DNA of 62,553 nucleotides, counting the filler, from Candidatus Woesearchaeota archaeon (GTDB taxonomy: Archaea; Nanobdellota; Nanobdellia; Woesearchaeales; B72-G16): the NCBI GenBank assembly GCA_003650545.1. It is 4 parts of 4 records of this genome, joined end to end, with 100 filler letters (N's around TTAATTAATTAA, not from the genome) between each part and the next. Parts side by side here need not be neighbours in the genome. Positions count along the whole stretch, not along the records: positions 35,472 to 52,671 come from QMQO01000029.1; 3 more parts are not named here. The stretch is one strand, 5' to 3'. The position numbers were made by a program, and so were the translations under genes. This document shows positions 35,653 to 52,658 of the stretch, one piece after another (positions within the stretch are counted from its first letter, which is position 1; every line of letters begins with the position of its first letter). The notes beneath the pieces are model-generated. The model was not told the origin of the DNA and did no database searches. It saw nothing but the letters and a program-made list of their open reading frames with translations.

Positions 35653-38600
35653 GTGAGATGGACCAAGAAACCGATAGCAGTATTTCTAATATTAATAGTA
35701 ATAAACATGCACATTGTGTTTGCACAGAGTTTATCTCCTATTAAGACAGCACCCAGTGCTAGTGAAGGTGGATATTTCTGTAAAAATGACAAAGATTGTC
35801 CCACTGGCACATATTGTTCAGGCAAAAAAGATCATTTTATGAATGATAGATGCTGCCCTTATAATTCAGAATATGATTACAGTGAAGATCTGTGTATCCA
35901 GGTCTGTGTTGATCAGGATCTTGATAATTCTGGTGTTTTCTGTGCTGAGGGGAAAGATTGTAGAGAACTGTCTAAGCTAACAACAAACGAATGTTTATTT
36001 AACAAAGACTGCGATGATGAAGATCAAGAGAGATCTGCTATTAATAGTGAAATATGTGGTGATGGAATTGATAATGATTGTGACGATAAAGTAGACGAAG
36101 CTGAGTGTATTAATAAAACTTATGATTCTCATCAGTTATATCTCCAAGAAAATATGTATGATGAAGAAACCTACAAGAGATGCAAAAGATATTTTCTTCT
36201 GGTAAACAGGGAAAACCCATGCGATGACTGTGGAGGCATTTTTAATGGGTGTGATGAAAAACGCTGCTCGAGCCTTGGAGAAGATTGTGTCTATCATGGA
36301 AGCTGGTTGTTGTTAGGATTACGAGGCAAATGTCTTCATGATATTGAGATAGATGAAAATGAATTAGCAAAATGCTTTGATGTTTTACATTGTTTTGATG
36401 GTGTGTTCCAACCTCAGATGGGTGAGCAAAGATTAGATTGTGGCGGTTCGTGCTTGCCTTGCGAAGATAAATTTGAAATAAGCATAGAGGACTCTGCTCC
36501 ATATATAACTGTATACAAACAACCAGGAGATATTGTGTCCTTAAGGATATACTCGCCTGAAGATACAACAATTAGACTAGATTACAGGGCTCTGGATGAA
36601 TATGGTGAAGAACTTTCTTACTTTCAGCTTGAACCGTTAGATGGCTGTGAAAAAGGAAGAGAGATAAACATAAGTCAAGGTGTGAATTATTGTAAATTCC
36701 AAATTCCTACATGGGCAGCACCATATTATTCGTTTGAGGTAAATGATCAAGAAGTTCAATTAGATATCATAAAAGACCCGTTGTATATAATATTAACCAA
36801 TAAACTAAATTTGTTTGATCACTGCAGTGTAAGCCCAAGAATTTTAGAGTCTCAGAATTTTAAATTTCTAGAAAAACTCTATTTTACAGCCGAAGAAAAT
36901 AGAGGGATAGTCTATGACATAAATGATTATATTGAAACTGAGTCATGGAACTCATGGGATGTGCATAATCTTCAAGAAAAATTAAAAAAATTCATAAAGC
37001 AAAAAGTAGGGGTAGATGATGAGCATTATCCCCATGTTCTATTTGTTGGTGGCGACAGTGTCATTCCTTTTTACAGATATACAGATTTTTTAGAAAATAG
37101 TGGTGGAGTATCATTTAAATCAGACAGCGCATATTCGCCCAAATGCAAGCAAGTAACTAGCATGCACACAGGGGATGTTTTTAGTGTAAACGACATATTG
37201 ATTGTGTTGCCAGATTCAGGCATAGACAAAAACCATGAAGATGTTAAAAAAATTCAAAAAGCCTTGTACCTTAAGTTTGGACATTTCTACTGCAGCTGTG
37301 GGGATTACTATCTTGATGTACTTGATAGTCTCCAAAATCAACCAGATGGTTCTGAACAGAGAGAAAGTTTGAAAGATTATTTAGGTGAAATATTTAGCGA
37401 TGAGACTGATTACAATGAGACTGATTATGATCGTATTAGAGAAATGTTGAACCCTTATTCAGCTGAATTATTCTTAGCACCTTGGGAGTATAGCACAAAC
37501 AAAGATGTACCTTTAAGTGAAGAAGATGCTAAAGTTATAAAAAATACATGCAGGATATATTTTGAAGAAGCATCTTGCCCTAGTCTTGTTGATTTCTTGA
37601 AACAACAAAAAATTTTGAAGCAAATGAATGATAGATATCCTGTTGAGCAGATGAATGCGATTGTGGATTCCATTGTTGATAATATGGAAGAGTATGTATT
37701 CAGAGAAGGAAATAAGGAATATTTGGATATGGGTAAAGTTTTTTTGAAAACATTGAATTATTATTACGATGACAACATCCCGTTTTCTGATCAAGAGTTG
37801 TATGCATATATTAATATCATACCATTTGTCCCTTTGTCTCCAGGTATTGATGTTGTAAGCGCTACGAAACATCTCATAATTTATCATATATTTGGCCTCG
37901 AACCGAATGGCCAACCAAAGAGATTCCCTATTGGCAATGGTAATATCAATTCGCCTGAAGATATCAAATTATATTATGCAAGCGAGATTCAAAGAAATTT
38001 TGAAGGATTATTAGAAAATAAAAATGCAATCATAATAGGCAACAAAGACAATAATTTCTTGTTTACTGAATTTGATGCTGCTTATGACGAACCTGTTATC
38101 ACAATAGACAGAAATGAATATTCAAAAGAAGGTTACCATCTCTTTGTAAATCTACCAAGAAACAACATAACGAAAGCTGCTAAGTTTCTTGTACCCTTTA
38201 TAAACGGTGGGTTTTGGCTTTGTGTTCCTAGGGATAGTCATGCTGTTATTTTGATTGATCTAACACTGGTCGGCATTGGTTTAATGACTGGAGCAGATTT
38301 TATAGCTGACATATATGGTGTTGCAACAGAATGTGACAAACTTTTTAGAGAAACTAAAGTTTGCGAAGAAAATAAATTTGAATCATTTTTCTGGTGCTCT
38401 CTTAATGTTGTTGCTCTTTCTATACCCTTTGTAACAGGGGCTCATCTTATCTCGTCAGCAATAAAATCTGGAAAAAACGCAAAAAGATTAACTCAAGGGT
38501 TCACTCGAGCCATAGAACATTCTGACGAACTTATTTCAATAATAAGCAAAAGTGACAGCTTGAAAGATGTTATTAAAAGTGCAGACGATCTTGAAGATGG

Positions 38601-40812
38601 TTTTAGTAAATTTGGCAAATTACTTGGTAAAGCTAGAGAATCTGGCGTCATTAATTATGATGACACGAACAAAATACTGTATAGCCTGGTTGATATGGCT
38701 GATAATGTTGCAGGTAATTCTGACGAAGTAGCAGAATTCTGGGGCAGAATTGCCAAGATAGGTAAGACATGGGATGACAAATCAGTTGGGCTACTGAAAC
38801 AAGTTGGCCATATTGATAATGTTGTCAGAGGCAGGATGTTCATAAAAAAAGTTGATGATATGCTTACTATTGCAAGACAGACAGGCAAATATGATGAAAC
38901 AGTAGAATTGCTCACTCTAGGAGCAAGTAAGTTAGATTCTTTAACCAATCTACCAAAAATTGGTCACAGGGTTTTTGATGCACCAGATATTGCAGATCCT
39001 ATAATAAGAGAAGGTAAAAGGATTGAGAGTTTCTTAGAGTATCAAAAAGGACTGGGTTCTATCTCTAAGCTAGAGAAAGCAGAGGGTGCTGCAAGGGTTA
39101 TTTTTGAGTTTGGAGCGCCTGGTGCTAGATTCAGTGATGAGATTGCTGATGAGCTTATAAGGGGTGTAAAGCTTTTTAGTGATGGTAGCGTTGCTGAGTC
39201 GTTTATAAAAAACATAAATAAATTTGGACTAGAGAAAAACGCAATCAAAAAAATAAGACTAGTCCCTGCTAGTGTGTTCTCTACAACAAGTGATGGTGCA
39301 AGAATAACCACTAAACAGAGCAGAAACATAATCGAGATTGCAGCCACATCACCTATGGAGCTTGATGATTTAAAATTTAAGCAATTAATGGGCAGCAACT
39401 TTATTCCACACGAGATAGCTCATGCAAAAGTAAGGGAAACATTCGGAAGCCTGAACAGAGCAATAAATAATCTTCCTACATTTGAGTCTTATAAATATAA
39501 AATACGATCAGAGTGGTTTGAAGAATTTCTTGCAAATAGATTGGTTGAACGTACCCTGGATGTAGACGATCTCAAGAAATTTAAAAATGGTGAAAAGATC
39601 TTGCTTGAGGACTTAGATGTTGGTGCGAATGTTGGTAATAGCTTCTTAAACAATTTTAATTATATTGATTTTGATTATCTTGGATTTATAAAGAGTGAAG
39701 TAAACCAGTTTGGGGGTGATAAGACTACTAAACTTTTAAATCAATTCGATCAAGGAATAAAAAATGGCATATCAGATTATCTAATAAAAACAAGAGGATT
39801 CACTCAGTCTCAAGTAGAGGACACTATTGTTTTGATAAAGAATCACATAGATGATGTTGCAAATGAGTTCGAAAAAAACGCAGACGAACTGATAGACAAA
39901 GGCATAAGATCAACAGGTGAAACAGATGCCCTCTACTCTAAAGCCATCCAGAAAGCTGTTGATATAGCAGACGAATTCGGTGAACTTGAAACAGTTACTG
40001 TTAATCTAAGACAGATGTTAAAGAGTGAACTAAGTCTGTCTGACGAAGTTATTAGTAGTCTAAGCGACGAACAAGTCAGAGCAATAGTCAGACTTCAGAA
40101 AATTATAGGAAAAGATCCAACTTTAAGAATAATTGACGAGAGCTGGGATGTTTTAGTTACTGTGAATAAAATAATTGATAAAGTACCTAGAGCATCCTCG
40201 GACCTTGCAGAAGACATAGCTTTTGTGTTAGAACATCATAGCAGAGAGATTGATAATATATTGAAAAATAGCGAAAATGTAGAAAATATAGGTCAGGATG
40301 CTTTTGAGTTTATGGCAAGAAGACGTATTTTAAAAGAAAATAAAGGCTCTAAAGTATTCACAAAAGACATATTTATTAAGAAAGTTGACAGTGACGGGAA
40401 ACTACATTTCATCGGGAGAGGAGAAGAATTTGACAATGTCATAACAGAAAAACTAGCAAACAATAATCTTAAAATCATTGGCTTTGTTGAAGTCAAGGCA
40501 GGCACTTCTAATGGAGTAATTGGAAAATTAGTTGAACAAATGGAAAGAAGAAAATCTCTACTTAATGATGTTAAAAAAGATTTGTCTAATAAAAAATATT
40601 ATTTGGCCAAAGATTCAACAAATAAAATCATTGAAGCAAATGAAATAGATGAAATTGCATCTAAAAGGATAATAAATAAAAATTCGTATGGTGTTGTTGT
40701 TGATGATGTCCCAAATTTTGAGGAAGGTAAAAATATATATAAAGCAGGCTATACAAAGGATCAACTAACTCAAACATTTGAAAACTTAAAGAACTTAAAA
40801 AGTCTAGAATAG
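35653..40812 (+). CDS. Secreted polymorphic-toxin-like protein: Cys-rich N-terminus, C25-like segment, HExxH domain, C-terminal PD-(D/E)xK-like nuclease
   Basis: Signal peptide; EICGDGIDNDCD; DCGGSC; VLFVGGDSVIPFY; hydrophobic pre-toxin-like helices; HEIAH (39409-39423) plus EEFLA; G...FE / EFD / VEVKAG. Confidence 0.7.
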   Translation: MRWTKKPIAVFLILIVINMHIVFAQSLSPIKTAPSASEGGYFCKNDKDCPTGTYCSGKKDHFMNDRCCPYNSEYDYSEDLCIQVCVDQDLDNSGVFCAEGKDCRELSKLTTNECLFNKDCDDEDQERSAINSEICGDGIDNDCDDKVDEAECINKTYDSHQLYLQENMYDEETYKRCKRYFLLVNRENPCDDCGGIFNGCDEKRCSSLGEDCVYHGSWLLLGLRGKCLHDIEIDENELAKCFDVLHCFDGVFQPQMGEQRLDCGGSCLPCEDKFEISIEDSAPYITVYKQPGDIVSLRIYSPEDTTIRLDYRALDEYGEELSYFQLEPLDGCEKGREINISQGVNYCKFQIPTWAAPYYSFEVNDQEVQLDIIKDPLYIILTNKLNLFDHCSVSPRILESQNFKFLEKLYFTAEENRGIVYDINDYIETESWNSWDVHNLQEKLKKFIKQKVGVDDEHYPHVLFVGGDSVIPFYRYTDFLENSGGVSFKSDSAYSPKCKQVTSMHTGDVFSVNDILIVLPDSGIDKNHEDVKKIQKALYLKFGHFYCSCGDYYLDVLDSLQNQPDGSEQRESLKDYLGEIFSDETDYNETDYDRIREMLNPYSAELFLAPWEYSTNKDVPLSEEDAKVIKNTCRIYFEEASCPSLVDFLKQQKILKQMNDRYPVEQMNAIVDSIVDNMEEYVFREGNKEYLDMGKVFLKTLNYYYDDNIPFSDQELYAYINIIPFVPLSPGIDVVSATKHLIIYHIFGLEPNGQPKRFPIGNGNINSPEDIKLYYASEIQRNFEGLLENKNAIIIGNKDNNFLFTEFDAAYDEPVITIDRNEYSKEGYHLFVNLPRNNITKAAKFLVPFINGGFWLCVPRDSHAVILIDLTLVGIGLMTGADFIADIYGVATECDKLFRETKVCEENKFESFFWCSLNVVALSIPFVTGAHLISSAIKSGKNAKRLTQGFTRAIEHSDELISIISKSDSLKDVIKSADDLEDGFSKFGKLLGKARESGVINYDDTNKILYSLVDMADNVAGNSDEVAEFWGRIAKIGKTWDDKSVGLLKQVGHIDNVVRGRMFIKKVDDMLTIARQTGKYDETVELLTLGASKLDSLTNLPKIGHRVFDAPDIADPIIREGKRIESFLEYQKGLGSISKLEKAEGAARVIFEFGAPGARFSDEIADELIRGVKLFSDGSVAESFIKNINKFGLEKNAIKKIRLVPASVFSTTSDGARITTKQSRNIIEIAATSPMELDDLKFKQLMGSNFIPHEIAHAKVRETFGSLNRAINNLPTFESYKYKIRSEWFEEFLANRLVERTLDVDDLKKFKNGEKILLEDLDVGANVGNSFLNNFNYIDFDYLGFIKSEVNQFGGDKTTKLLNQFDQGIKNGISDYLIKTRGFTQSQVEDTIVLIKNHIDDVANEFEKNADELIDKGIRSTGETDALYSKAIQKAVDIADEFGELETVTVNLRQMLKSELSLSDEVISSLSDEQVRAIVRLQKIIGKDPTLRIIDESWDVLVTVNKIIDKVPRASSDLAEDIAFVLEHHSREIDNILKNSENVENIGQDAFEFMARRRILKENKGSKVFTKDIFIKKVDSDGKLHFIGRGEEFDNVITEKLANNNLKIIGFVEVKAGTSNGVIGKLVEQMERRKSLLNDVKKDLSNKKYYLAKDSTNKIIEANEIDEIASKRIINKNSYGVVVDDVPNFEEGKNIYKAGYTKDQLTQTFENLKNLKSLE

Positions 40813-40819
40813 GTGAAAA

Positions 40820-41200
40820 ATGGGAATAAGAATGTATGCAAAAATTAATGGAAAGAAAGAAGAGATTTACTTATCTGGAAGAAATATAGAAACCATGAGG
40901 TTTAGTTTAGTGTACGAATTGGAGAAAGTAAAGGAATTGGCCAAGAGACTGTTCAGAATATTAGAATCTTGCGAAAACGAATGGAAAAGCAAAATAGAAA
41001 AAGAAAGAAATTTTGACAAGTTTAATCTTAATGCTGAAACCATAATTGAAGAGATAAAAACTGTTTTTGAAAACAAAGAAAATAAGATGTACAAAAATGT
41101 GAATTGGGTTTATTTAACAGATATACTAAAACGTTTGTATCATTTTACTGAAAAAGCAAAAAAAGAGGGTTATAATACTATAAATTTTTTCATATTTTAG
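40820..41200 (+). CDS. Candidate immunity protein
   Basis: 126-aa cytoplasmic ORF 7 nt after the toxin stop, AGGTGA RBS. Confidence 0.55.
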   Translation: MGIRMYAKINGKKEEIYLSGRNIETMRFSLVYELEKVKELAKRLFRILESCENEWKSKIEKERNFDKFNLNAETIIEEIKTVFENKENKMYKNVNWVYLTDILKRLYHFTEKAKKEGYNTINFFIF

Positions 41201-41205
41201 GAAAA

Positions 41206-41484
41206 ATGGTACAGATATACAAAATAAAATGCAAGAGATGTGGTTATGAAAAAGAAGTATCAGAAGGATTAGCAAATAGACTTGCAAATATCAAATATAA
41301 AATCTATTATTGTTCAAAATGCAAAGAAATATTTCATTCATTAAAAGAATATTGTCCTGAATGTGGTTCAAAAAGCCAGTTGCTATCGCCCTTACAGTAC
41401 TGTTCATTGCAGTCTAATAAAATCAGATGTCCTAAATGTAAGGGCAAGTTATGTGTGGAGGAAAAAGAAGGTTATGTATACTAA
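41206..41484 (+). CDS. Small multi-Zn-ribbon protein, possible second immunity or accessory protein
   Basis: Four CxxC pairs: CKRC, CSKC, CPEC, CPKC. Confidence 0.65.
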   Translation: MVQIYKIKCKRCGYEKEVSEGLANRLANIKYKIYYCSKCKEIFHSLKEYCPECGSKSQLLSPLQYCSLQSNKIRCPKCKGKLCVEEKEGYVY

Positions 41485-42644
41485 ACAGATCTGAGCATGA
41501 TTACAAAATGAATAATAATTATAAAATGACTCACATGAAAATAATCTGGTTGTTGCTAGTAGGCCTTGTTTTTACTAGTGTTTGCCATGCACGGGTAACA
41601 TTGACTACAACTGTAGATGCAACATTCATTTCTAGAATAGACGCACCAAACATCGAGAAGCTTTATAAGAGTCTGGATCTTGATTATTTTAACTTTAAAG
41701 AAATAAAAATATATGAAGAGAATCATTGCAGTAGAGACAGCATATTAAACAGCATTGGGAAGCTACTAGACAAAGTTTTTTTAGGGTCATACAATATGCT
41801 TTTTTTGAAAAAGTTAAAAGAGAATGGGATACTTCTCGTATACCCAAAGAAAAGATTTATCCAAGAAGATGCGTCACATAAATTTTTGTTGAGTTCGTTT
41901 TATTCATTCAAAGACGATATAAAAGAAAAAAAACCATTGATAATCTACAACTGGGACAAAGCGATAGAAGATGAAGAGTTCAATTATGTTATGAATGAGC
42001 TCTCTCCGGATGTGGCTCTACTAACTAGCTCCTACAAAACAGCATCAGAACAATTCCTAAAAGCATTTATATGTAGTCTTGATGCACACGAATCTGGCAC
42101 ACTGGGGGATGCTTATTTAAGCGCAAGGAATAGGTACAGGTTGTTGAACGAAGAAAAAGAAAGTAAGATAAAACTTCTTTCTTATGTCTACTTTGGTCTG
42201 CCATATGCAAAATTCAGCTTGCCGAATCCAAAACCTAGTAGAGAAGAGGTACTTTTGCCTTGTGAAGATTTTGACGAATATATAAAACTACTTCCATTGT
42301 TCAAATCAAGTTTGCCTGCTGCACCTGGACAACAAAAAGACGAATTAAATGTAACTAATAATGGAGACATACCCATTGATCTAGATATTTGGGAGTATCA
42401 TGCTAAACAAATAAAAACATTTTGTGATCAACACAGTCATAAATTTCAGCTGAAATGGTACGATGGTTTTGTTTTAGCTTACCCATTAAGTAGACTTATT
42501 TATTCCTCGATTTATCCCTATGAAGAATATTCTCACCCATATTATAAGCCAATACACAAAGTAATCTATCTGGCTGCAGAATATTGTAAAGGTTATTTTC
42601 AGCTTGAAAAATATCCAGAGAAAACATACATGGGGGAATATTGA
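41451..42644 (+). CDS. Secreted protein with degenerate C25/caspase-fold C-terminal motif; true start probably 41526 or 41535
   Basis: MKIIWLLLVGLVF signal; TLGDAYLSARNRY...YVYFGLP. Confidence 0.5.
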   Translation: MCGGKRRLCILNRSEHDYKMNNNYKMTHMKIIWLLLVGLVFTSVCHARVTLTTTVDATFISRIDAPNIEKLYKSLDLDYFNFKEIKIYEENHCSRDSILNSIGKLLDKVFLGSYNMLFLKKLKENGILLVYPKKRFIQEDASHKFLLSSFYSFKDDIKEKKPLIIYNWDKAIEDEEFNYVMNELSPDVALLTSSYKTASEQFLKAFICSLDAHESGTLGDAYLSARNRYRLLNEEKESKIKLLSYVYFGLPYAKFSLPNPKPSREEVLLPCEDFDEYIKLLPLFKSSLPAAPGQQKDELNVTNNGDIPIDLDIWEYHAKQIKTFCDQHSHKFQLKWYDGFVLAYPLSRLIYSSIYPYEEYSHPYYKPIHKVIYLAAEYCKGYFQLEKYPEKTYMGEY

Positions 42645-43900: not shown

Positions 43901-44044
43901 AACTAGAATAACATAGAACTAGAATATAGAATATAAAACTAGAATATAGAGTATAGAACTAAAATAGAGAATATAAAACTGGAATATAGATATAGACTAG
44001 AATATAGAATATAAAACTGAATATAGAATTATAGAATATAGAAC
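43891..44044. repeat. Degenerate TAGAATA-type tandem repeat
   Basis: Many copies of TAGAA(T/C)A and AACTAGAATATAG variants, without unique spacers. Confidence 0.8.
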
Positions 44045-44217: not shown

Positions 44218-44241
44218 GAACCTAACCTTAATAGACGATAT

Positions 44242-45798: not shown

Positions 45799-45860
45799 AT
45801 GTCTTTCAATATCTTTAGACAATAAATCACATTAAATTACAATAAATTTTTAAAAAAAAT

Positions 45861-46238: not shown

Positions 46239-46247
46239 ATCGGAAGA

Positions 46248-47867
46248 ATGAAACTGACTATCATAATTTTTTTTGTATTTTTAGCTATGGTTATGCTGAG
46301 CTATGCTAGCTATGATGAAGATACGCTACTTGTAAAGAATTGTAAAAAGGCAACCTATTATGCACAAATCGATGATGATTTTTGCGATTGGGTTGAAGAT
46401 GATCCTGAGCTGAATGCTCTACCAGAAGATCAACAAAAAACCTACATGATATCGCAACTAATGGGGGTTGACCGGACTGTGATAGATGAACACGAGTTCG
46501 TAGAACTCTGGAACAAAGGCATTATAGTAGATACAGATTTTCCTAGCGAGCTTTCTGACGAAGCAAAAGAACTTAGGTATGAGACAATAGGAAATGTCTG
46601 GACAGCCTTGATAGGAGTAATTCCGTCTTACATGGAAAATGGTACGCTTTATACTCTAAAAGAAGGTGATGCAGTAGCTGTTGCTCATTATGACCTATTT
46701 CCGCCAAAGAATTTTGCAGAAAGTAGAAGTACAACCGCTTTGTATTGTGGTGGCGGCAGCACAAATAGTGATAGATATGGAAGAGGAGATTGCAAGACTA
46801 TATACCATGACTTTAGCCATGAAGCTGATTTAAGGATCTATCAAGGAGAAAGTGAGTTAGTAGGAGAGGTATCAGATAAGCAAGAGTTGAATCTTTACGG
46901 GCATTTTGAACGGTTCGGAACTAACTATTGGTCAAAATTAAAGGTCAGGCATACCTTTTATGCAGATCATTATAAATGGAAAAAAGCTGGCTGTTGTAAA
47001 GCTTGTAAGTGTGAAGAGCCTCCATGTGGATGTTGCACTTACTATTATAGATGCTCCCTCTCGCAAAGTGGCAGGAATAATAAGATAAATCACATACTTC
47101 ATCTAAAACATGATTATGACCAAAATATCAAACAATATCAAAAACCTAACTTCAGCCATAAAATCACTCTATACGACGAGCAGACAAAGCCAGTAGTCAA
47201 AGTGGAGACAGATGCTGATGATTACGAAATCAGATTCTTAAACGGTGCAAAGTTTATGCATTTCAGTTCAGATTATTTTACTGGTTGGTGGCTAGCTCCT
47301 TATAACGCATTATATACTACTAGAACAGTGAACGAAAACTATTATGCTAGTCCGGATGTAAGGGTTATATCTACAAATAATGTTACATTTGAAACTGATC
47401 CTGCTAATATTGGTAGTTGTACATTTACTTACTACTATCGTTTTAATAAGCCTGGTTTTGACTCTGAAACTGTGCCTTGTGAGATTGTTAGGAAACTTTC
47501 TCCTAAGATGACAATTGCAACTGACAAGGGAGTGTACAAAGAAGAAGAGGTTATAACCTTAAGAATAAATGTTTCAGAGAATGATTGTGGAATAACAGGT
47601 TATGTTACAGCCAATTATGATAATATTTCAAAACAGGTGCCAGTCTATAACGGATATGGGGAATCTAAATTTATTGCAAAAAAAAATAGTAATTTTATCA
47701 CTGTTAACTATTCAGGAGAGTTGTCTATTGCAAGGAGCAAGAATATAAAAGTTCTTGACAAGAATTTCATAAACATAGTCTATACGCTTGTCTTTTTTTG
47801 TTTTTTTAGCATGGTTATCATAAGACTGTATATTGTAAAAATTAAGAGAATGTGGTTGTCAAGATGA
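46248..47867 (+). CDS. Exported, C-terminally anchored protein with a Cys cluster
   Basis: Signal peptide; GCCKACKCEEPPCGCC; C-terminal TM. Confidence 0.65.
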   Translation: MKLTIIIFFVFLAMVMLSYASYDEDTLLVKNCKKATYYAQIDDDFCDWVEDDPELNALPEDQQKTYMISQLMGVDRTVIDEHEFVELWNKGIIVDTDFPSELSDEAKELRYETIGNVWTALIGVIPSYMENGTLYTLKEGDAVAVAHYDLFPPKNFAESRSTTALYCGGGSTNSDRYGRGDCKTIYHDFSHEADLRIYQGESELVGEVSDKQELNLYGHFERFGTNYWSKLKVRHTFYADHYKWKKAGCCKACKCEEPPCGCCTYYYRCSLSQSGRNNKINHILHLKHDYDQNIKQYQKPNFSHKITLYDEQTKPVVKVETDADDYEIRFLNGAKFMHFSSDYFTGWWLAPYNALYTTRTVNENYYASPDVRVISTNNVTFETDPANIGSCTFTYYYRFNKPGFDSETVPCEIVRKLSPKMTIATDKGVYKEEEVITLRINVSENDCGITGYVTANYDNISKQVPVYNGYGESKFIAKKNSNFITVNYSGELSIARSKNIKVLDKNFINIVYTLVFFCFFSMVIIRLYIVKIKRMWLSR

Positions 47868-48850
47868 ACAAAAAAAGAAATGGAAAAAGGAGTTTTTTAT
47901 TGCTCATATCTCTTATATCTATTTTGATAGCTTGTATATTTATAAGTGTTGCTGCAGCTAAAGATGACCAAGTTATATCAGACGAATGTGAAAACATAAA
48001 ACCTGGCGAATACGATAAACAGGTTATTTGTGAGCTTGAAACCTACATATTGAGCGCTAATAAAGTTATACAAGATAACACAAACAACATGATGGAAGAA
48101 GTCATAAAAAGTACTTCTTTTGAGATTTCTATCGATGAGAAGGTGAAGAACGCACACTACCTGATTTTTGCGATAGCTGGTGCAGTTATGGTTCTCTTCT
48201 TGGTGTTAACAGGCCACATGTATATTGTTTCTGCTGCAAATCCTGAAAAAAGAGAAAAAGCAAAAAGGCAATTAAAGAATATTATGATTATTCTGATAAT
48301 TGCTGGTGCGCTTATGCCTATCATATCAGTGATAAATGACCTTGGCAACACAACCAATGTTATGTTTGCTCAAACTTATAAAATTGATGAAGACTTTTTT
48401 ACGAATGTAACATTTGAATCTGAAGTGACTGATCCTGGCACATATTCTGGAAATTTAGAGAAGTTTGGCTATATGATATCTTATTCACCGCCATTTATCA
48501 AAGCTGCAAGATGGTACCTCATGTCTATGGAAGCCAGGAATGTCATACTTATCTTTTTAATAGTTATTGCTCCATTTATTTTAATTATGTTTTATTTTGA
48601 GCCCATGAAAGAGTTTGGTAAGGTCTTTGCATATCTGTTTTTGATAGAGTTGTTCCTACCCGCTATATTTATGCTCGTGCTGCATTTCACAAGCGGCAAT
48701 CTCAATGAGTTTGCAAGAATGAACCGGATTACTGCTGCACTTTATTTTTGCGTTGCTATTCATGCGATACTTGTACTTGTCGCTATTTTAAAAGCCGGTG
48801 TGAGTGCAATTCAGGATATGAAAGAGAGAGTTGCCATACAAAGCAAATAA
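47852..48850 (+). CDS. VirB6/TrbL-like polytopic membrane protein
   Basis: G.MYI.SA.NPEKR.KAK pilin-like hairpin followed by R..IL.FL..IAPF multi-TM region; position in the operon. Confidence 0.6.
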   Translation: MVVKMNKKRNGKRSFLLLISLISILIACIFISVAAAKDDQVISDECENIKPGEYDKQVICELETYILSANKVIQDNTNNMMEEVIKSTSFEISIDEKVKNAHYLIFAIAGAVMVLFLVLTGHMYIVSAANPEKREKAKRQLKNIMIILIIAGALMPIISVINDLGNTTNVMFAQTYKIDEDFFTNVTFESEVTDPGTYSGNLEKFGYMISYSPPFIKAARWYLMSMEARNVILIFLIVIAPFILIMFYFEPMKEFGKVFAYLFLIELFLPAIFMLVLHFTSGNLNEFARMNRITAALYFCVAIHAILVLVAILKAGVSAIQDMKERVAIQSK

Positions 48851-48993
48851 TTGCCAACAAAATAAACGAATAAACGCTTCATTTAATGCTTGCTGCTCAG
48901 ACAACAGCAGTATAACAATGTTGCAACACTTAGAAAATGAGGAAAATGATAGTAAATCGTATGAGCAAAAGAAAATAACCTGAAGGCGATATT

Positions 48994-49971
48994 ATGACAT
49001 ACGAAATTCCAAAAAATCTGAATCGTTATTCAGAATTATTCCTCTGGGGAATGACATTTAAGCAGTTTGGATATGCACTAATATGCATCATGGCAATAGC
49101 ATTCATTATAATGAAAGCCGTGATTTTTCCAATTTGGCTTAGGATCTCTGTATGTTTTCCAATTGCAGGTCTTGGTATATTGCTTGTGTTTTACAAACTT
49201 GATGAAAAAATCAAAGACCGCAGAAACGAACAGAAGAGTCTGCATAACACCTCTTTTAATGATAGCAAGATGGATTATTTTGTAAATGTTAAAGAGATAA
49301 CAGATAATGCGATAATCAACAAGAATGGTGCAATGGTGGCTGTGCTGCAAGTTACTCCATTGGATTTTTCGATTTTATCTGAGAATAAAAAAGAGGCTAT
49401 TTTGAATGCCTATCAACAATGGTTAAAAAGCCTAGATTACGAAACGCAAATTGTTTCAAGATCAGTCAGCTTAGACATCTCTAGATGGCTAAACAATTTG
49501 GCAGAAAAGCCAAGTGTTAAGCAGAACATGGAACATTATCGTATCTTTAGAGAATGGATGCTTGAGCAGGTTAGTAAATCAACAGTCAGAAATAGATTGT
49601 TCTATATCCTGCTACCATACTGGATGGATCTAAGCACAACAAACAAGACCTGGAAATATTGGTTCAACCTATTAATTGGAAGAGTTCCAGATACAAGAGA
49701 AAAGAGCCCTGCGTACCTCAAAGCAGTAAAAAAACTTACAGAACGCGCAGATAATTGCATGGAGTTGTTAAAACGTTGTGGTGTCGAAGTCAAAAGACTT
49801 GATAACGCTGAATTATTGGAACTTTATGCTTCATATTTCGCCAATGTTGCTAAGCTTAACAATACAACTGTCTGGCCTTCACTCTGGTTAGGAAAAGATC
49901 GGGAGGAAAAACAAAATGTTGTTTTCAAGCAAACAAAAGACGAACTTGCAAGCAAAGGATTTATGCTATAG
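48994..49971 (+). CDS. PrgI/VirB3-like protein fused to a VirB4-N/TraC-like domain
   Basis: YEIPKNL.RY.E.FLWGMTFKQF plus two TM; ..P.DF..LSE....I..Y..WL.SL....QI. Confidence 0.7.
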   Translation: MTYEIPKNLNRYSELFLWGMTFKQFGYALICIMAIAFIIMKAVIFPIWLRISVCFPIAGLGILLVFYKLDEKIKDRRNEQKSLHNTSFNDSKMDYFVNVKEITDNAIINKNGAMVAVLQVTPLDFSILSENKKEAILNAYQQWLKSLDYETQIVSRSVSLDISRWLNNLAEKPSVKQNMEHYRIFREWMLEQVSKSTVRNRLFYILLPYWMDLSTTNKTWKYWFNLLIGRVPDTREKSPAYLKAVKKLTERADNCMELLKRCGVEVKRLDNAELLELYASYFANVAKLNNTTVWPSLWLGKDREEKQNVVFKQTKDELASKGFML

Positions 49972-50653
49972 AAAGTTGAATATTGAAGATATCAAAGATG
50001 ATCTTCTCCTTTTAAGAGATGGTAGTATGTACGTCATTGTTGAGCTTGCTGGCACAAACTTTGAAAAACTTAGCGAAGAAGAAAGATTAGCTATAGAGAG
50101 TAAATATAGAATGTGGATTGAAAGTCTGACACATCCTGTTCAGATGGTTGGAAGAACTGTTAACGCCGAGTTAGACAAACAATTTTTGATGATAAAAAGC
50201 ACTATTGAGCAAAGCATAAAAGAAAAGATGAGCAACAAAAAAGAAAGGACAGACAAGAGGTTAGAACTAAAGTCCGTACTGCGCGAGTTTAAAGAGTTTA
50301 GCGAATGGTTGGAAGGTTTACTAAAGAACTGTGAAGAGACAAGACTATACTATTTAGTCATTCCATATCTGCCATACTACACTAAAAGAGAAGCCAAGAA
50401 AAAAGATAACTACGAAACTGCAAAGTTATTGCTAGAAAAAAGAAGTGGCTCTTGTATCAAGACGCTTTCTATACTTGGCTTTAAACCTCGCAGGTTAAGG
50501 ACTGTTGATATAAGCTCTCTGCTCAAATCATATTTTTGTCCTTATTTGTTCATTAATGGAGAGCGTCAGTTTATTTGCTCAGATGAATGGGCAGTCTTAT
50601 GGGACTGTTGGAAATTTCAAAATAAAAAGATGGAGGGAAAAAATGAGAGCTAA
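49916..50653 (+). CDS. Soluble paralog of the VirB4-N/TraC-like domain
   Basis: DG......NF..LSEEE...I...Y..WI.SL..P.Q...R aligns by eye with the preceding gene. Confidence 0.65.
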   Translation: MLFSSKQKTNLQAKDLCYRKLNIEDIKDDLLLLRDGSMYVIVELAGTNFEKLSEEERLAIESKYRMWIESLTHPVQMVGRTVNAELDKQFLMIKSTIEQSIKEKMSNKKERTDKRLELKSVLREFKEFSEWLEGLLKNCEETRLYYLVIPYLPYYTKREAKKKDNYETAKLLLEKRSGSCIKTLSILGFKPRRLRTVDISSLLKSYFCPYLFINGERQFICSDEWAVLWDCWKFQNKKMEGKNES

Positions 50654-52658
50654 TTTTACCGAGATTGATCTTATTGCTGATGAGCTAGCTAACATAGTCG
50701 CAACGAAGGGTGTCGTGTTACCAGAAGAGTTTGAAATGCTAGCTAAAGAACTCTCAAAAAAAGAGAAGAAGATTTTGATGAAAAAACTATTTGCAATGAA
50801 CATTGAAAAGAAAGAGGATTTATTACAGGCTAAGAGAGATGGAAGCTTTCAGACAGAATTTATAGCTAATAAGGATATATTATCTTTCTTGATTAGACCT
50901 GAATACGTTAATAGTAATCCTGATTATATACAAGTGGGAACGCAATATTTTCGCGGCATGGTCGCCACTGGTTTCCCTGCCAAAGTTAACGAGAACTGGC
51001 TTGGCAAGCTTATTCAAGAGAGAAGCAATATTGACTTTAGCATATTTATCTGGCCATCTTCTGTTCGTGCATTAGAGGTTTATCTTTCAGACGAACTCAA
51101 GAAAGTAGAGAACGATCTTTACAGTTATACAAAACGTGGTCTTCACAACCCATCTTTAGAAGCTAGGAAAAAAGAATTGCTTGAGCAGCTTGATAACCTC
51201 ATTAAAGGAACATATAAACTTTACAAAATGTCTCTATATCTGATAAGCAAGGGTACTTCACCTGAAGCAACTATGACTCTTTCTAATAGGATACTTTCTT
51301 CATTAAGAGCAGAAGGTATTGAAGCAAAACAAGCAATAAACTATCAAGAACAACTAATGAAGTCTGTTATTCCTACAGGAAGAGATTACATGCAAGGCAG
51401 ACAGATCTTCGTACCTGGTCCAGCTGCAGCTGCTGCTTTTCCATTTAGCTCTGACTACTATGCAGCAGATGAAGAAGATGGCATTTTGCTTGGATTTAAT
51501 GATAATGAGATTCCTATTGGCTTGTCTATTTGGAAATTGCCTAAGTATGTTGGCGTTATAATAGGTGCAACTGGAGCTGGGAAATCATACGCAGCAAAAG
51601 CACTTGTATTGAATGATAGGATGGTTAATGGTACTAAAATTTTCATTCTCGATCCAGAGAATGAGTACACAGAGATGTGCAAGCGCATCAAAAACTCGCA
51701 GATAATCTCGCTTGATAGAAAGTCGAAGACAATACCTAACGTGTTGTCATTGATGGGTGCTAGCTTAACTGATAAGTTGATTGCGCTTCCAAAGGTGTTG
51801 TCTGTATTATTTGAAGGTGTTACAGAGACCCAAAAACCTTTGCTCGAGAGTGCTTTAATTGAAACGTATAAACGTAAAGGCATTACTGAAGCAAATGAAA
51901 AAAGTTGGAAAAAGAAGGCGCCTAAACTCTCTGACCTTCTTAGAGTGCTAAATGCTAGAAAAAGAACTGCAACAGACCCTAACATCAGGAGCGATTACGA
52001 AGTTTTAGCTAGTAAACTTACAAGGTACACAACAGGAATATTTAAGTTTTTGAATCAAAGCCATAATAATCTAACTCTTGATTCAGACTTTGTCGTGTTT
52101 GAATTCAAGAACCTACCAGATGAAATCAGGCCTGTTATGATGATGATCTTATTAGAGTTCATCAAGACAAAATTCTTGAACGATGATGCAAAGAAGATGC
52201 TTGTTTTAGATGAAGCATGGCGCGTGCTTAAGAATAAAACAGAGGCGGACTATATTGAAAACTTTGCAAGAACATTCAGGAAATCTAACGGAGCTCTATT
52301 GTTATTGACGCAGAGTGTTGCAGAGCTGAAGGATAGTCCTGAAGGAAAAGCCTATCTGGCTAACACAGCATTCCAGTTTATCTTGAGGACTGAGGGAATT
52401 GTGTTAGATGAAACTGCAAAGTTGTTCCACCTGAATAAGACTGAGCAAGACATTATTAGGAATGCTGGCTTGGGACAGGGCATACTTATTTGGGGAGACA
52501 AACGTCATAAGATTAATGTAAAGGTGGATCCAAAAACACATGAGCTAATAACAACTCATCCAGAAGAAGTTAAAGCTAGGAAAGCTAAGGCTAACAAAAA
52601 AATGAGAAAAAAAATAAAGAAAAAAGTAAGCAAAAGAAAAAATAGGATAAGTAAATAA
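50643..52658 (+). CDS. virB4: VirB4-family T4SS ATPase
   Basis: Walker A GATGAGKS, ILDPENEY, Walker B LVLDEAW, RTFRK.NG, TQS, G.G. Start refined from 50556 (GGAGG RBS). Confidence 0.9.
   Translation: MRANFTEIDLIADELANIVATKGVVLPEEFEMLAKELSKKEKKILMKKLFAMNIEKKEDLLQAKRDGSFQTEFIANKDILSFLIRPEYVNSNPDYIQVGTQYFRGMVATGFPAKVNENWLGKLIQERSNIDFSIFIWPSSVRALEVYLSDELKKVENDLYSYTKRGLHNPSLEARKKELLEQLDNLIKGTYKLYKMSLYLISKGTSPEATMTLSNRILSSLRAEGIEAKQAINYQEQLMKSVIPTGRDYMQGRQIFVPGPAAAAAFPFSSDYYAADEEDGILLGFNDNEIPIGLSIWKLPKYVGVIIGATGAGKSYAAKALVLNDRMVNGTKIFILDPENEYTEMCKRIKNSQIISLDRKSKTIPNVLSLMGASLTDKLIALPKVLSVLFEGVTETQKPLLESALIETYKRKGITEANEKSWKKKAPKLSDLLRVLNARKRTATDPNIRSDYEVLASKLTRYTTGIFKFLNQSHNNLTLDSDFVVFEFKNLPDEIRPVMMMILLEFIKTKFLNDDAKKMLVLDEAWRVLKNKTEADYIENFARTFRKSNGALLLLTQSVAELKDSPEGKAYLANTAFQFILRTEGIVLDETAKLFHLNKTEQDIIRNAGLGQGILIWGDKRHKINVKVDPKTHELITTHPEEVKARKAKANKKMRKKIKKKVSKRKNRISK

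What the first reader, a model, noticed from the sequence alone, without database searches (positions are those of the whole stretch)
35653..52658. Candidate DPANN T4SS-like apparatus coupled to a polymorphic toxin-immunity locus
Seen on one contig and strand: giant secreted toxin-like gene, two small candidate immunity genes, two C25-related exported proteins, then coiled-coil, VirB2-like, Cys-cluster, VirB6-like, PrgI-like, TraC-N-like and VirB4 genes. No relaxase, VirD4, integrase or replication gene is visible, but the contig ends right after virB4. Known: VirB2/B3/B4/B6 form the minimal T4SS core. Inference: a contact-dependent effector or kin-discrimination system in a symbiotic archaeon rather than a plain conjugation module. 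The toxin has its own Sec-type signal, so it may be surface-displayed rather than a classical T4SS substrate.
Basis: partly seen in the sequence, partly recalled or inferred. Interest (0 to 1): 0.9.

Follow-up and report, generated by a model that had tools for sequence, protein, structure and literature searches.

The report
Archaeal type IV secretion-like gene module
A small symbiotic-type archaeon carries a conserved, relaxase-less set of type IV secretion genes like the one ultra-small bacteria need to live on their hosts, but the giant neighbouring gene called a toxin shows no detectable toxin features.

Summary
The gene order is real: 12 same-strand ORFs fill one 17.2-kb contig (35472-52671), bounded by artificial N linkers.

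The last seven ORFs form a type IV secretion (T4SS)-like core:
- coiled-coil membrane protein
- VirB2-like pilin
- Cys-rich anchored protein
- VirB6-like protein with a pilin-like N-terminus
- PrgI/VirB3 fused to a VirB4 N-domain
- a second VirB4 N-domain (TrsD-like)
- VirB4 ATPase with intact Walker motifs

This core recurs in 6 of 6 related loci, all from records labelled Archaea. There it sits among housekeeping genes, with no relaxase, coupling protein or integrase.

The VirB4 belongs to a separate archaeal clade. The next-best matches, at about 28% identity, are Patescibacteria where named.

The "polymorphic toxin-immunity" half is not supported. The 1719-aa protein is an orphan with no toxin, immunity or C25 hit, and none of the five upstream genes is conserved beside the core.

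Two leads remain: one relative has a secreted M23-Ntox44 protein in the same upstream position, sharing the giant's N-terminal Cys-rich stretch, and the giant's tip has a nuclease-like motif.

Verdict: a new archaeal variant of the relaxase-less Patescibacteria-type T4SS; toxin coupling unproven.

The parts
35472..52671 (.). One 17,200-bp contig, bounded on both sides by artificial linkers (44 N, TTAATTAATTAA, 44 N). It is not physically linked to the rest of the window.
   Evidence: Its tetranucleotide profile correlates 0.974 and 0.960 with pieces A and B, which carry archaeal pilus genes and MetRS, and 0.918 with piece D.
35653..40812 (+). Orphan 1719-aa membrane protein. It has an N-terminal leader (residues 4-30) and a Cys-rich region (38 Cys, all within residues 43-915). 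Hydrophobic segments lie at 862-885 and 912-937, followed by a Cys-free, mostly helical C-terminal half (938-1719). That half carries HEIAH at 1253 and a nuclease-like motif at 1591-1615. Function unknown; most likely a surface or host-contact protein with a cytoplasmic tail.
   Evidence: No family or homologue. Residues 40-103 are 37% identical to L003's M23-Ntox44 protein (E 8e-13). The model of 938-1719 is unusable (pLDDT 37.4).
40820..41200 (+). 126-aa ORF with no hydrophobic segment, 7 nt after the giant's stop.
   Evidence: DUF7660 at E=0.009, 16.5 bits against a cut-off of 27; searches found nothing significant; no match in the 6 loci.
41206..41484 (+). 92-aa double zinc-ribbon protein with 10 Cys.
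   Evidence: DZR 1.8e-4, Zn_ribbon_6 2.1e-4, all below cut-off.
41451..42644 (+). 397-aa exported or N-anchored protein of unknown family. The likely start is further in, near 41508, so it would not overlap the previous gene.
   Evidence: hydrophobic segment at 26-52; no Pfam hit at E<=10 including C25; no PDB hit; sequence read.
42641..43900 (+). 419-aa surface protein with an N-terminal leader and a C-terminal membrane anchor; unknown family.
   Evidence: segments 5-36 and 389-416; searches found nothing.
43890..44043 (.). Tandem array of about 6-7 copies of a 20-nt unit, in the 341-nt spacer between the accessory cluster and the core. Possibly an operator-like site; function unknown.
   Evidence: TRF score 164-182. 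The 15-nt core occurs 4 times here and nowhere else in the window; 0 of 100 shuffles reach 4. No such array upstream of the core in L002, L003 or L004.
44242..45798 (+). First gene of the conserved core: a 518-aa protein with N-terminal membrane helices, a long charged coiled-coil-like middle and a conserved C-terminal domain of about 70 aa.
   Evidence: (SMC-type 3e-6). The C-terminal domain is found in L001, L002 (as an 85-aa stand-alone ORF) and L003.
45861..46238 (+). VirB2/TrbC-like T4SS pilin: a leader followed by two hydrophobic helices joined by a conserved DP-x-[DE]-K loop.
   Evidence: T4SS_pilin 1.1e-12, TrbC 3e-11, both above cut-off; Mbov_0395 pilin-like, 5.9e-10.
46248..47867 (+). 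539-aa Cys-rich protein with a leader and a C-terminal anchor. It is a conserved, lineage-specific core member, beta-rich, possibly an adhesin or tip.
   Evidence: 5 sequences, 8 invariant Cys. 0 of 5 members have a meaningful Pfam hit. The model has pLDDT 55.3, and fold search gives TM-scores <=0.21, so it is uninformative.
47852..48850 (+). VirB6/CedA-like polytopic membrane protein (6 hydrophobic segments) whose N-terminal part is homologous to the pilin.
   Evidence: 6 of 6 family members hit T4SS_pilin and 0 of 6 hit TrbL/VirB6. hhalign of pilin family against this family: 95.7%, E 8e-9.
48994..49971 (+). PrgI/VirB3-like membrane hairpin fused to a VirB4 N-terminal (TrsD-like) domain.
   Evidence: PrgI, 32.4 bits against 27; positions 3-195 of the Mycoplasma ICE VirB4 model; TrsD 2e-4; 961 relatives at E<=0.001, some fused into proteins of 885-1099 aa.
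49916..50653 (+). Second, free-standing VirB4 N-terminal (TrsD-like) domain protein.
   Evidence: E 1.8e-15 to the previous ORF; hhalign 99.3%.
50556..52658 (+). VirB4-family ATPase with Walker A and B intact. The true start is probably downstream of 50556: the database copy has 691 aa, and alignments to relatives begin at residues 29-51.

Best explanation
The region holds two units.

**Unit 2 (44242-52658).** This is a conserved, chromosomally embedded, relaxase-less T4SS-like machine of Woesearchaeota-type (DPANN) archaea. It is an archaeal counterpart of the pilus-bearing monoderm-type T4SS of Patescibacteria.
- Shown: it encodes a VirB4 ATPase with intact Walker motifs, a VirB3/PrgI anchor fused to a VirB4 N-domain, a second such domain (the TrsC-TrsD-TrsE-style split), a VirB6/CedA-like membrane protein, a VirB2-like pilin and two lineage-specific envelope proteins.
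- Inferred from established T4SS biology: VirB4, docked through VirB3 to the VirB6-like channel, extracts pilin from the membrane and builds a pilus or short conduit through the envelope. The Cys-rich anchored protein and the coiled-coil protein would serve as adhesin/tip and scaffold.
- Inferred: because no coupling protein or relaxase accompanies it, here or in relatives, it is not a canonical conjugation system. It more likely serves contact-dependent exchange of macromolecules with a host cell. The direction (uptake as in Ced/Ted, or export of effectors) is unresolved.

**Unit 1 (35653-43900).** This is a genome-specific accessory cluster: a giant orphan membrane protein, two small cytoplasmic proteins and two exported or anchored proteins.
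- Inferred from the Cys distribution and flanking charges: the giant protein has its Cys-rich N-part outside and its 780-aa Cys-free C-part inside the cell.
- It is best read as a variable surface or host-contact protein cluster that happens to occupy, or has been recruited to, the variable position upstream of the core. It is not a demonstrated polymorphic toxin-immunity pair.
For: - Core identity: Pfam hits above cut-off for pilin, PrgI and VirB4. NCBIfam's best models are the Mycoplasma ICE VirB4 and pilin and the CD1110 VirB4, i.e. monoderm type. Walker A and B are present. The pilin to VirB6-like homology matches what Beltran et al. describe for CedA/CedA1 and VirB6/VirB2 (PMC9905601, passages).
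- Conservation: the same gene order, pilin / Cys539 / VirB6-like / PrgI-TrsD / TrsD / VirB4, is seen in whatever part of it each of 6 of 6 loci covers.
- Chromosomal setting: the flanks carry panB/panC/panE, a Hef-associated-nuclease-like gene, a diphthamide-synthesis fragment, L11 (best model PRK01143, 202.6 bits against a cut-off of 162, while the bacterial L11 model falls below its cut-off), deoxyhypusine synthase and CDC48 (1034.8 bits against 802.65). One relative lies on a 568-kb contig.
- No relaxase, T4CP or integrase among 34 flank ORFs or on this contig.
- Clade: 30 archaeal VirB4 rows form one group (SH-aLRT 100), apart from 44 second-tier rows (99), which are Patescibacteria wherever they carry a name.
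- Analogy: the Patescibacteria T4SS is chromosomal, has VirB4, TrsD, PrgI, VirB6 and VirB2-like pilins, mostly lacks relaxases (PMC12102498, passages), and is essential for epibiotic growth (PMC10633639, passages).
- Unit 1 is variable: none of its 5 proteins has a match in the six loci, apart from residues 40-103 of the giant.
- Topology: 38 Cys lie before residue 916 and 0 after. The segment after the second hydrophobic stretch has 5 K/R against 3 D/E, while the loop between the two stretches has 4 K/R against 7 D/E.
Against: - The contig breaks 13 nt after VirB4 and 181 nt before the giant gene, so what flanks this particular copy is unknown.
- The archaeal nature of this contig is inferred from relatives and from composition. 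It carries no archaeal marker gene itself.
- Only 3 of the 6 loci give useful flanks. Three of the six carry the record label 'uncultured Methanosarcinales archaeon', which I could not verify.
- NCBIfam scores for VirB4 are below every curated cut-off (209 bits against 590), so it is a divergent member.
- No VirB8-like or VirB1-like component was found on the contig.
- Function and direction of transport are pure inference; there are no expression or imaging data.
- The tight spacing giant/126-aa/92-aa (7 and 5 nt) and the M23-Ntox44 protein upstream of the core in L003 are what a toxin reading would predict.
- The topology call rests on simple hydropathy and charge counts, not on a dedicated predictor.
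Confidence: 0.6

Rival explanations
1. The giant protein is a polymorphic toxin, surface-displayed or T4SS-delivered. The two small genes downstream are its immunity proteins, and the T4SS-like apparatus forms one contact-dependent antagonism or kin-discrimination system with them.
For: - In L003, a leader-bearing 657-aa protein with Peptidase_M23 (3.2e-21) and the polymorphic-toxin domain Ntox44 (5.9e-13, 49.5 bits against a cut-off of 24) lies directly upstream of the core.
- It shares a Cys-rich N-terminal stretch, at the same distance from the leader, with the giant protein (37% over 65 aa, E 8e-13).
- The giant gene is followed at 7 and 5 nt by two small ORFs without leaders.
- Its tip has a stretch at 1591-1615 that fits a PD-(D/E)xK-type pattern. 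I wrote that pattern from memory after seeing the sequence, so the count of 1 of 5000 shuffles is biased.
- HEIAH at 1253 could be a processing peptidase, but 165 of 5000 shuffles contain HExxH by chance.
Against: - No toxin or immunity family hit in Pfam (even at E<=5 on six sub-fragments), NCBIfam, PADLOC or PHROGs.
- No PDB sequence match for the tip at E<=10 that is nuclease-like.
- No homologue of any length class was found for the C-terminal half, and none of 945-3009 aa for the whole protein. There is therefore no family with swapped tips.
- The cluster is absent beside the core in 6 of 6 loci.
- A 341-nt spacer containing a repeat array separates it from the core.
- Charge and Cys distribution place the C-terminal half in the cytoplasm, not at an exposed tip.
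- The M23 protein in L003 could simply be the wall hydrolase (VirB1 role) that monoderm T4SSs carry; the Pontibacillus plasmid has an M23-type gene right after its VirB4.
Confidence: 0.12
2. The contig is a fragment of a conjugative plasmid or integrative element. Its relaxase, coupling protein and replication or integration genes lie beyond the contig ends.
For: - The contig ends 13 nt after VirB4 and begins just before the giant gene.
- The upstream half consists of orphan genes, as mobile-element cargo often does.
- An iteron-like tandem array is present.
- The wider VirB4 family is mainly conjugative: of the 5000 best plasmid records, 4315 are typed conjugative.
- Archaeal conjugative plasmids lack recognisable relaxases anyway (PMC9905601, passage), so absence of a relaxase is weak evidence in archaea.
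Against: - Relatives with longer contigs show housekeeping genes directly on both sides of the core, and no coupling protein or integrase among 34 flank ORFs.
- One relative sits on a 568-kb contig.
- The best plasmid VirB4 matches are at most 26.7% identical.
- The composition matches the archaeal pieces of the same window.
Confidence: 0.12
3. The core is specifically a nucleic-acid importer, a third archaeal 'domesticated T4SS' working like Ced (Sulfolobales) and Ted (Thermoproteales). It would feed a nucleotide-auxotrophic symbiont from its host. This overlaps with the best explanation and differs only in fixing the direction and the cargo.
For: - It has the same minimal trio as Ced/Ted: VirB2-like pilin, a VirB6-like protein whose N-terminus resembles the pilin, and a VirB4-like ATPase. 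It also lacks a relaxase and coupling protein (PMC9905601, passages).
- There is a weak CedB model hit (1.9e-9, 36.7 bits against a cut-off of 700).
- A 2026 preprint reports acquisition of host RNA by a cultivated Minisyncoccota parasite and tubular structures that may be T4SS pili (10.64898/2026.06.21.733656, passages).
Against: - Sequence affinity is to monoderm bacterial and Patescibacteria VirB4, not to CedB/TedB.
- No HerA/NurA/Rad50 or ParA-like genes were seen in the neighbourhoods I examined.
- Nothing here indicates the direction of transport.
Confidence: 0.25

Closest known systems
Patescibacteria (CPR) T4SS (Quinonero-Coronel et al. 2025, PMC12102498; Wang et al. 2023, PMC10633639; passages read)
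   Same: - Monoderm-type VirB4 with a PrgI/VirB3, a TrsD-like VirB4 N-domain protein, a VirB6-like protein and VirB2-like pilins.
- Chromosomal location, with no relaxase or coupling protein in the cluster.
- The owner is an ultra-small organism with a reduced genome.
- CPR proteins are the next-best VirB4 matches after the archaeal clade.
   Different: - The host domain is Archaea.
- VirB4 is only about 28% identical, and the archaeal rows form their own group on a long stem rather than nesting inside the sampled second-tier rows.
- PrgI is fused to the TrsD-like domain here, whereas the paper reports no VirB3-VirB4 fusions.
- There is a single pilin gene rather than pilin arrays.
- Two extra conserved genes (Cys539, coiled-coil protein) have no named counterpart.
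- No wall hydrolase lies on this contig.
MPF-FATA conjugation systems of monoderm bacteria (pGO1 TrsC/TrsD/TrsE, CD1110-type ICEs, Mycoplasma ICE)
   Same: - Best NCBIfam models for VirB4, the pilin-like protein and the N-domain pieces.
- The same split of VirB3, VirB4 N-domain and VirB4 ATPase.
   Different: - All scores are below curated cut-offs.
- No VirD4/TcpA, relaxase or VirB8-like gene is present.
- It has a VirB2-like pilin, which these systems normally lack (PMC12857230, passage).
- It is not on a plasmid or ICE in relatives.
Ced and Ted DNA-import systems of Crenarchaeota (Beltran et al. 2023, PMC9905601; passages read)
   Same: - An archaeal, domesticated, relaxase-less T4SS derivative made of a pilin, a VirB6-like channel with a pilin-like N-terminus and a VirB4-like ATPase.
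   Different: - No meaningful sequence affinity (CedB model 36.7 bits against a cut-off of 700).
- A different lineage of VirB4.
- VirB3/TrsD pieces are present.
- The owners are DPANN-type rather than free-living hyperthermophiles.
SPEARE-type giant proteins of Nanohaloarchaeota next to VirB4/TraG-like ATPases (La Cono et al. 2023, PMC10266531; passages read)
   Same: - A DPANN genome with a giant protein (outside part, membrane segment, large inside part) close to a VirB4-family ATPase.
- The authors propose it is a host-subjugation secretion device.
   Different: - The giant protein here has no ATPase domain (no Walker A), no Ig-repeat array and no internal repeats.
- It is not adjacent to VirB4; ten genes lie between them.
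- It is not conserved among relatives.
Polymorphic toxin systems (Zhang et al. 2012, PMC3482391; passages read)
   Same: - A leader-bearing large protein followed closely by small ORFs.
- One relative carries an Ntox44 domain protein in the same position.
   Different: - No recognised toxin or immunity domain, no repeats (RHS or filamentous haemagglutinin type), and no family with a conserved N-terminus and variable tips.
- The tip is probably cytoplasmic.

Membership tests
Type IV secretion system, monoderm (MPF-FATA / Patescibacteria-type) | VirB4-family ATPase with Walker A and B motifs | tested here: met
   Pfam P-loop_TraG, AAA_10 and DUF87 are above cut-off. Motifs are at residues 337 and 548. 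NCBIfam VirB4 models match at 6.5e-62 but below curated cut-offs.
Type IV secretion system, monoderm (MPF-FATA / Patescibacteria-type) | VirB3/PrgI membrane anchor next to VirB4 | tested here: met
   PrgI scores 32.4 bits against a cut-off of 27. It lies two genes upstream of VirB4 and is conserved in 6 of 6 loci.
Type IV secretion system, monoderm (MPF-FATA / Patescibacteria-type) | VirB6/PrgH-type polytopic channel protein | tested here: inconclusive
   It has six hydrophobic segments and a pilin-like N-terminus, as described for VirB6/CedA. However, 0 of 6 family members hit the TrbL/VirB6 Pfam model.
Type IV secretion system, monoderm (MPF-FATA / Patescibacteria-type) | VirB2-like pilin (a feature of the Patescibacteria type, not of classical monoderm systems) | tested here: met
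   T4SS_pilin scores 48.2 bits and TrbC 43.8 bits, both above cut-off. The alignment shows a leader plus two helices.
Type IV secretion system, monoderm (MPF-FATA / Patescibacteria-type) | VirB8-like and VirB1-like (wall hydrolase) components | tested here: not met
   None on this contig. An M23 peptidase is present upstream of the core in 1 of 6 loci (L003).
Conjugative element (plasmid or ICE) | Relaxase and type IV coupling protein (VirD4/TcpA) near VirB4 | tested here: not met
   None on the contig and none among 34 flank ORFs of the relatives. The contig ends 13 nt after VirB4, so for this copy the test is incomplete.
Conjugative element (plasmid or ICE) | Integrase or replication gene, and location outside housekeeping context | tested here: not met
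   The flanks in L002, L003 and L005 are housekeeping genes. No terminal repeat of the contig was found.
Polymorphic toxin-immunity system | Recognisable C-terminal toxin domain | tested here: not met
   Pfam on the whole protein and on six fragments at E<=5, NCBIfam, PADLOC, PHROGs, PDB sequences and the Atlas (28) gave no hit to a toxin family. The structure model was unusable (pLDDT 37.4).
Polymorphic toxin-immunity system | Family of proteins sharing the N-terminal part with differing C-terminal tips | tested here: not met
   There were 0 relatives of 945-3009 aa and 0 relatives of 30-944 aa for residues 938-1719. Only a 65-aa stretch is shared with one protein. The sensitivity of these searches is limited by the need for shared 5-residue words.
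Polymorphic toxin-immunity system | Immunity protein of a known family immediately downstream, binding the toxin | tested here: inconclusive
   No immunity family hit.
Peptidase C25 (gingipain-like) | Match to the C25 catalytic or propeptide domain, with catalytic His and Cys | tested here: not met
   No Peptidase_C25 or Propeptide_C25 hit for 41451-42644 or 42641-43900 at E<=10, nor for the giant. No PDB sequence hits. Motif-level resemblances that I recall were not tested at fold level.
Ced/Ted archaeal DNA import | CedB/TedB-type ATPase with CedA/TedA and CedA1/TedC | tested here: not met
   The CedB model scores 36.7 bits against a cut-off of 700. The architecture is analogous but the sequence lineage differs.

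The most novel reading that the evidence does not exclude
Woesearchaeota-type archaea carry a domesticated T4SS whose upstream position is a swap site. That position would hold Sec-exported effectors that share a short Cys-rich leader module but carry different payloads. In one genome the payload is a peptidoglycan peptidase fused to Ntox44. Here it is a 1719-aa orphan whose cytoplasmic tail would be cut by its own HExxH peptidase to release a nuclease-like tip, held in check by the adjacent small proteins. If so, this is the first T4SS-linked polymorphic effector system in Archaea, used to attack or exploit host cells, possibly bacteria.
Probability: 0.1. Interest if true: 0.85.

Novelty: new variant of a known kind. 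Interest (0 to 1): 0.6.

Why it matters
DPANN archaea and Patescibacteria are the two great radiations of ultra-small, host-dependent microbes, and how they tap their hosts is largely unknown. In Patescibacteria the pilus-bearing, relaxase-less T4SS is the first T4SS shown to be essential for its owner's growth.

A conserved counterpart sitting among housekeeping genes in Woesearchaeota-type archaea would mean both radiations use the same kind of machine for host contact, either by gene transfer between them or by parallel domestication. It would also give DPANN biology a concrete, testable candidate for the host interface.

I found no description of it in print:
- Six full-text searches returned no paper describing such a module in DPANN, Woesearchaeota or Nanoarchaeota.
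- In a December 2025 T4SS review the word DPANN does not occur, and the passages shown from its archaeal section name only Sulfolobus-type plasmids and pT33-3.
- A Black Sea study that binned both groups reports VirB4 only in Patescibacteria.

Subscription journals and preprint supplements were not searchable. Public annotation already names some of these proteins 'VirB4 family'.

Tried and rejected
**Giant protein.**
- No result from Pfam whole and in six pieces, NCBIfam, PADLOC, PHROGs, PDB sequences for the whole protein and the tip (18, 90), the ESM Atlas for residues 938-1719 and 280-860 (28, 80), tblastn against plasmids, or self-BLAST for repeats (102).
- The AlphaFold2 single-sequence model of 938-1719 has pLDDT 37.4 and pTM 0.21. 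It is too poor for a fold search, so none was run.

**Cys539 family.**
- The model from a 5-sequence alignment has pLDDT 55.3.
- Foldseek against PDB gave only strings of Ig-like domains with TM-scores <=0.21, and the PDB profile search gave E>=0.02. I treat all of this as uninformative.
- The PrgI-like profile against PDB found nothing.

**C25 idea.** Rejected at the level of sequence profiles.

**Circular contig or terminal repeats.** None found.

**Repeat array as a shared regulatory element.** Not found upstream of the core in L002, L003 or L004.

**VirB4 against phage records.** 43 weak matches with no annotated feature under those listed; not informative.

**Rooting the VirB4 tree.** With four plasmid sequences the outgroup did not fall on one side of any branch and long branches met. 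The tree therefore does not say who donated to whom.

- Complex prediction of tip plus 126-aa protein: tool not available.
- Cluster look-up for organism names of unnamed VirB4 relatives: switched off.
- Makarova et al. 2019 (mBio) on archaeal polymorphic toxins: not held. I know it only from citations in other papers.

Full report
**What the window is.** The 62,553-base window is not one molecule. Three identical artificial linkers (44 N, a 12-base all-frame stop spacer, 44 N) at 17807-17906, 35372-35471 and 52672-52771 split it into four pieces. The finding covers exactly piece C, 35472-52671 (17,200 bp).
The contig also begins only 181 nt before the giant ORF.
- The genes after 52772 in the window (LysM protein, phage-like internal protein) belong to another contig and say nothing about what follows VirB4.
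- Piece C matches pieces A and B in tetranucleotide usage (r = 0.974 and 0.960). Piece D matches less well (0.87-0.92).
- Piece A carries an archaeal-type pilus locus: a FlaI-like ATPase, PilB3_C, two TadC-like proteins and archaeal Pilin_N.

**The genes.** Twelve ORFs lie on the + strand in two blocks.
- Block 1 (35653-43900) holds the 1719-aa ORF, ORFs of 126 and 92 aa that follow at 7 and 5 nt, and two ORFs of 397 and 419 aa.
- A 341-nt spacer contains a tandem array of a 20-nt unit.
- Block 2 (44242-52658) holds seven ORFs that are tightly packed or overlapping.

**Block 2 is a T4SS-like core.**
- 45861-46238 is a VirB2/TrbC-type pilin (T4SS_pilin 48.2 bits, TrbC 43.8 bits, both above cut-off). 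It has a leader and two helices.
- 47852-48850 has six hydrophobic segments and a pilin-like N-terminal part (T4SS_pilin 31.6 bits). All 6 family members hit this model and none hits the VirB6/TrbL model. Profile comparison with the pilin family gives 95.7%. A pilin-like N-terminus is what Beltran et al. report for CedA and, more weakly, VirB6 (PMC9905601, passages).
- 48994-49971 has a PrgI/VirB3 hairpin (32.4 bits against 27). Its remainder matches the N-terminal 195 positions of the Mycoplasma ICE VirB4 model.
- 49916-50653 is a second copy of that VirB4 N-domain. This is the TrsD type.
- 50556-52658 is the VirB4 ATPase, with Walker A at residue 337 and Walker B at 548.
- 44242-45798 (membrane helices, a charged coiled-coil-like middle, a conserved C-terminal domain of about 70 aa) and 46248-47867 (leader, 16 Cys, C-terminal anchor) have no known family.

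**Relatives of the core.**
- The VirB4 search returned 171 proteins at E<=0.001 among 8000 scored candidates. After the window's own protein come 31 proteins at 46-63% identity. Five of them carry an organism name, four Woesearchaeota and one Nanoarchaeota; the other 26 are unnamed. One lies on a 568-kb contig.
- From rank 33 on, identity drops to about 25-33%. Every organism name there is Patescibacteria (Woesebacteria, Gracilibacteria, Doudnabacteria, 'Patescibacteria group') or plain 'bacterium'.
- In a quick maximum-likelihood tree of 78 rows, the 30 archaeal rows form one group (SH-aLRT 100) on a long stem and the 44 sampled second-tier rows form another (99). The four plasmid outgroups did not behave, so the root and the direction of any transfer are open.
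- The best plasmid matches are at most 26.7% identical and come from Bacillota and Actinomycetota.

**Neighbourhoods.** I used the single genome scan with an alignment of the PrgI-like protein, so that 10-kb flanks would reach both sides of the core.
- 27 stretches matched the pattern and 6 were confirmed. All 6 come from records labelled Archaea: 2 Woesearchaeota, 1 'archaeon', and 3 'uncultured Methanosarcinales archaeon', a label I could not check.
- BLAST of the 12 window proteins against all ORFs of these loci shows the core order conserved wherever the contig covers it: pilin, Cys539, VirB6-like, PrgI-TrsD, TrsD, VirB4. The C-terminal domain of the coiled-coil protein comes first in L001, L002 and L003. 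L002 has an extra VirB4-like piece.
- None of the five block-1 proteins has a match. The one exception is residues 40-103 of the giant protein.
- Pfam on 34 flank ORFs and NCBIfam on seven found housekeeping genes. Upstream in L002 are panC, panB, panE, a DHH/Hef-associated-nuclease-like protein, CYTH and a diphthamide-synthesis fragment. Upstream in L003 are L11 (archaeal-type model above cut-off, bacterial model below) and a Bro-N protein. Downstream in L005 are an HTH regulator, deoxyhypusine synthase, CDC48, NIF3 and a PPIase. Downstream in L003 are two small ORFs and a convergent 1942-aa beta-helix protein.
- No relaxase, coupling protein, integrase or replication protein appeared.

**Block 1: the claimed toxin locus.** The giant protein has a convincing leader when read from its GTG start.
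- All 38 Cys lie in residues 43-915, with a MopE-like Cys motif just below the Pfam cut-off. Two moderately hydrophobic stretches lie at 862-885 (which contains three Asp) and 912-937. The C-terminal half of 782 residues has no Cys.
- The stretch after the second segment is K/R-rich, and the loop between the two is acidic and contains Cys. I therefore infer one true membrane span, with the N-part outside and the C-part inside.
- It matched no toxin or other informative family in any library or collection tried. It has no relative of 945-3009 aa, and its C-half has none of 30-944 aa, among 5.8 billion clustered sequences. It has no internal repeats.
- The single-sequence structure model is unusable (pLDDT 37.4). 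It suggests only a helical body and a mixed alpha/beta tip.
- The 126-aa ORF has one sub-threshold hit (DUF7660, E 0.009), and no held paper mentions that family. The 92-aa ORF is a double zinc ribbon.
- The 397- and 419-aa ORFs are exported or anchored but show no C25 signal.

**What keeps the toxin idea alive.**
- In L003 the gene directly upstream of the core encodes a leader-bearing 657-aa protein with Peptidase_M23 and Ntox44. Zhang et al. list Ntox44 as an all-alpha polymorphic-toxin domain with no known immunity protein (PMC3482391, passage).
- Its N-terminal Cys-rich stretch aligns with the giant's at the same offset from the leader (37% over 65 aa, E 8e-13).
- The giant's tip contains a stretch at 1591-1615 that fits a restriction-endonuclease-type pattern. 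I composed that pattern from memory after reading the sequence, so the count of 1 of 5000 shuffles is not a fair test.
- HExxH at 1253 occurs by chance in 165 of 5000 shuffles.
- Against this, the M23 protein may simply play the wall-hydrolase role usual in monoderm T4SSs; a Pontibacillus plasmid has such a gene right after its VirB4. Two instances do not make a family.

**Interpretation.** The solid result is the core: a conserved, housekeeping-embedded, relaxase-less, pilin-bearing T4SS derivative in Woesearchaeota-type archaea.
- Its nearest described counterpart is the Patescibacteria T4SS. That system has the same parts list and the same lack of relaxase (PMC12102498, passages) and is essential for epibiotic growth of Southlakia (PMC10633639, passage).
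- Its nearest archaeal analogues are the Ced/Ted importers, which share the logic but not the sequence lineage.
- By analogy I propose a contact-dependent conduit or pilus to the host cell, with the direction of transport unknown.
- Block 1 is best seen as a genome-specific cluster of envelope proteins next to it. The nanohaloarchaeal SPEARE-type giants, with their VirB4-like ATPases, are a loose parallel (PMC10266531, passages).

**Novelty and limits.**
- Six full-text searches found no description of such a module in DPANN. In a recent review the word DPANN does not occur. A Black Sea study found VirB4 only in its Patescibacteria bins.
- Database annotation does already call some of these proteins VirB4-family.
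- Only three loci gave useful flanks.
- The smaller block-1 proteins were not searched against the large collections.
- Bioinformatic absence of a relaxase is weak evidence in archaea, where conjugative plasmids also lack recognisable relaxases.

Noticed in passing
window 43890-44043: A tandem array of about 6-7 copies of a 20-nt unit lies in the spacer between the accessory cluster and the T4SS-like core. Its 15-nt core occurs four times there and nowhere else in the window. No counterpart was seen upstream of the core in three relatives. It could be an operator or an iteron.
   Followed up: partly
window 52772-62553 (separate contig): A phage-like fragment. It has a LysM protein (Pfam 5e-17), a protein matching PHROG 2534 ('released from the phage upon host infection', 2e-15), and tblastn matches of 34-38% over about 30% of the query to Microcystis and Brucella phage ORFs, annotated 'putative peptidoglycan hydrolase' in the Brucella phage records. 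Its composition fits the other pieces less well (r = 0.87-0.92). It is probably a bacteriophage contig binned with the archaeon.
   Followed up: partly
window 19215-20246: An adjacent nucleotidyltransferase (197 aa) and HEPN (145 aa) pair. It recalls the MNT-HEPN family that Makarova et al. list as conserved in DPANN in housekeeping context (PMC6393860, passage).
   Followed up: no
window 21048-30691: Four consecutive minus-strand ORFs of 1049, 720, 1044 and 336 aa have no Pfam hit. The 720- and 336-aa proteins are weakly similar to each other (E 1e-7).
   Followed up: no
window 3306-13003: An archaeal type IV pilus locus. It has several paralogous pilin-like ORFs (one with Pilin_N), a FlaI-like ATPase with PilB3_C, and two TadC/T2SSF proteins. 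A second surface-filament system is thus binned with the T4SS-like core.
   Followed up: no
L001, L004, L006 ends; L002 and window piece C ends: Three of six related contigs stop at or just after the PrgI-like gene. Two contigs (L002 and the window's) stop within about 110 nt after VirB4. These recurrent assembly breaks at the same places may reflect strain variation around the core.
   Followed up: no
L003 1569-3542: An archaeal MAG encodes a leader-bearing protein that combines a Cys-rich N-terminus, a peptidoglycan peptidase M23 domain and Ntox44, right next to the T4SS-like core. A peptidoglycan-cleaving enzyme in an archaeon hints at bacterial targets.
   Followed up: partly
L002 11601-12749: An extra 382-aa ORF between the TrsD-like gene and VirB4 matches the middle of the VirB4 model (positions 229-481, 9e-13). 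VirB4 pieces have therefore been duplicated more than once in this clade.
   Followed up: no
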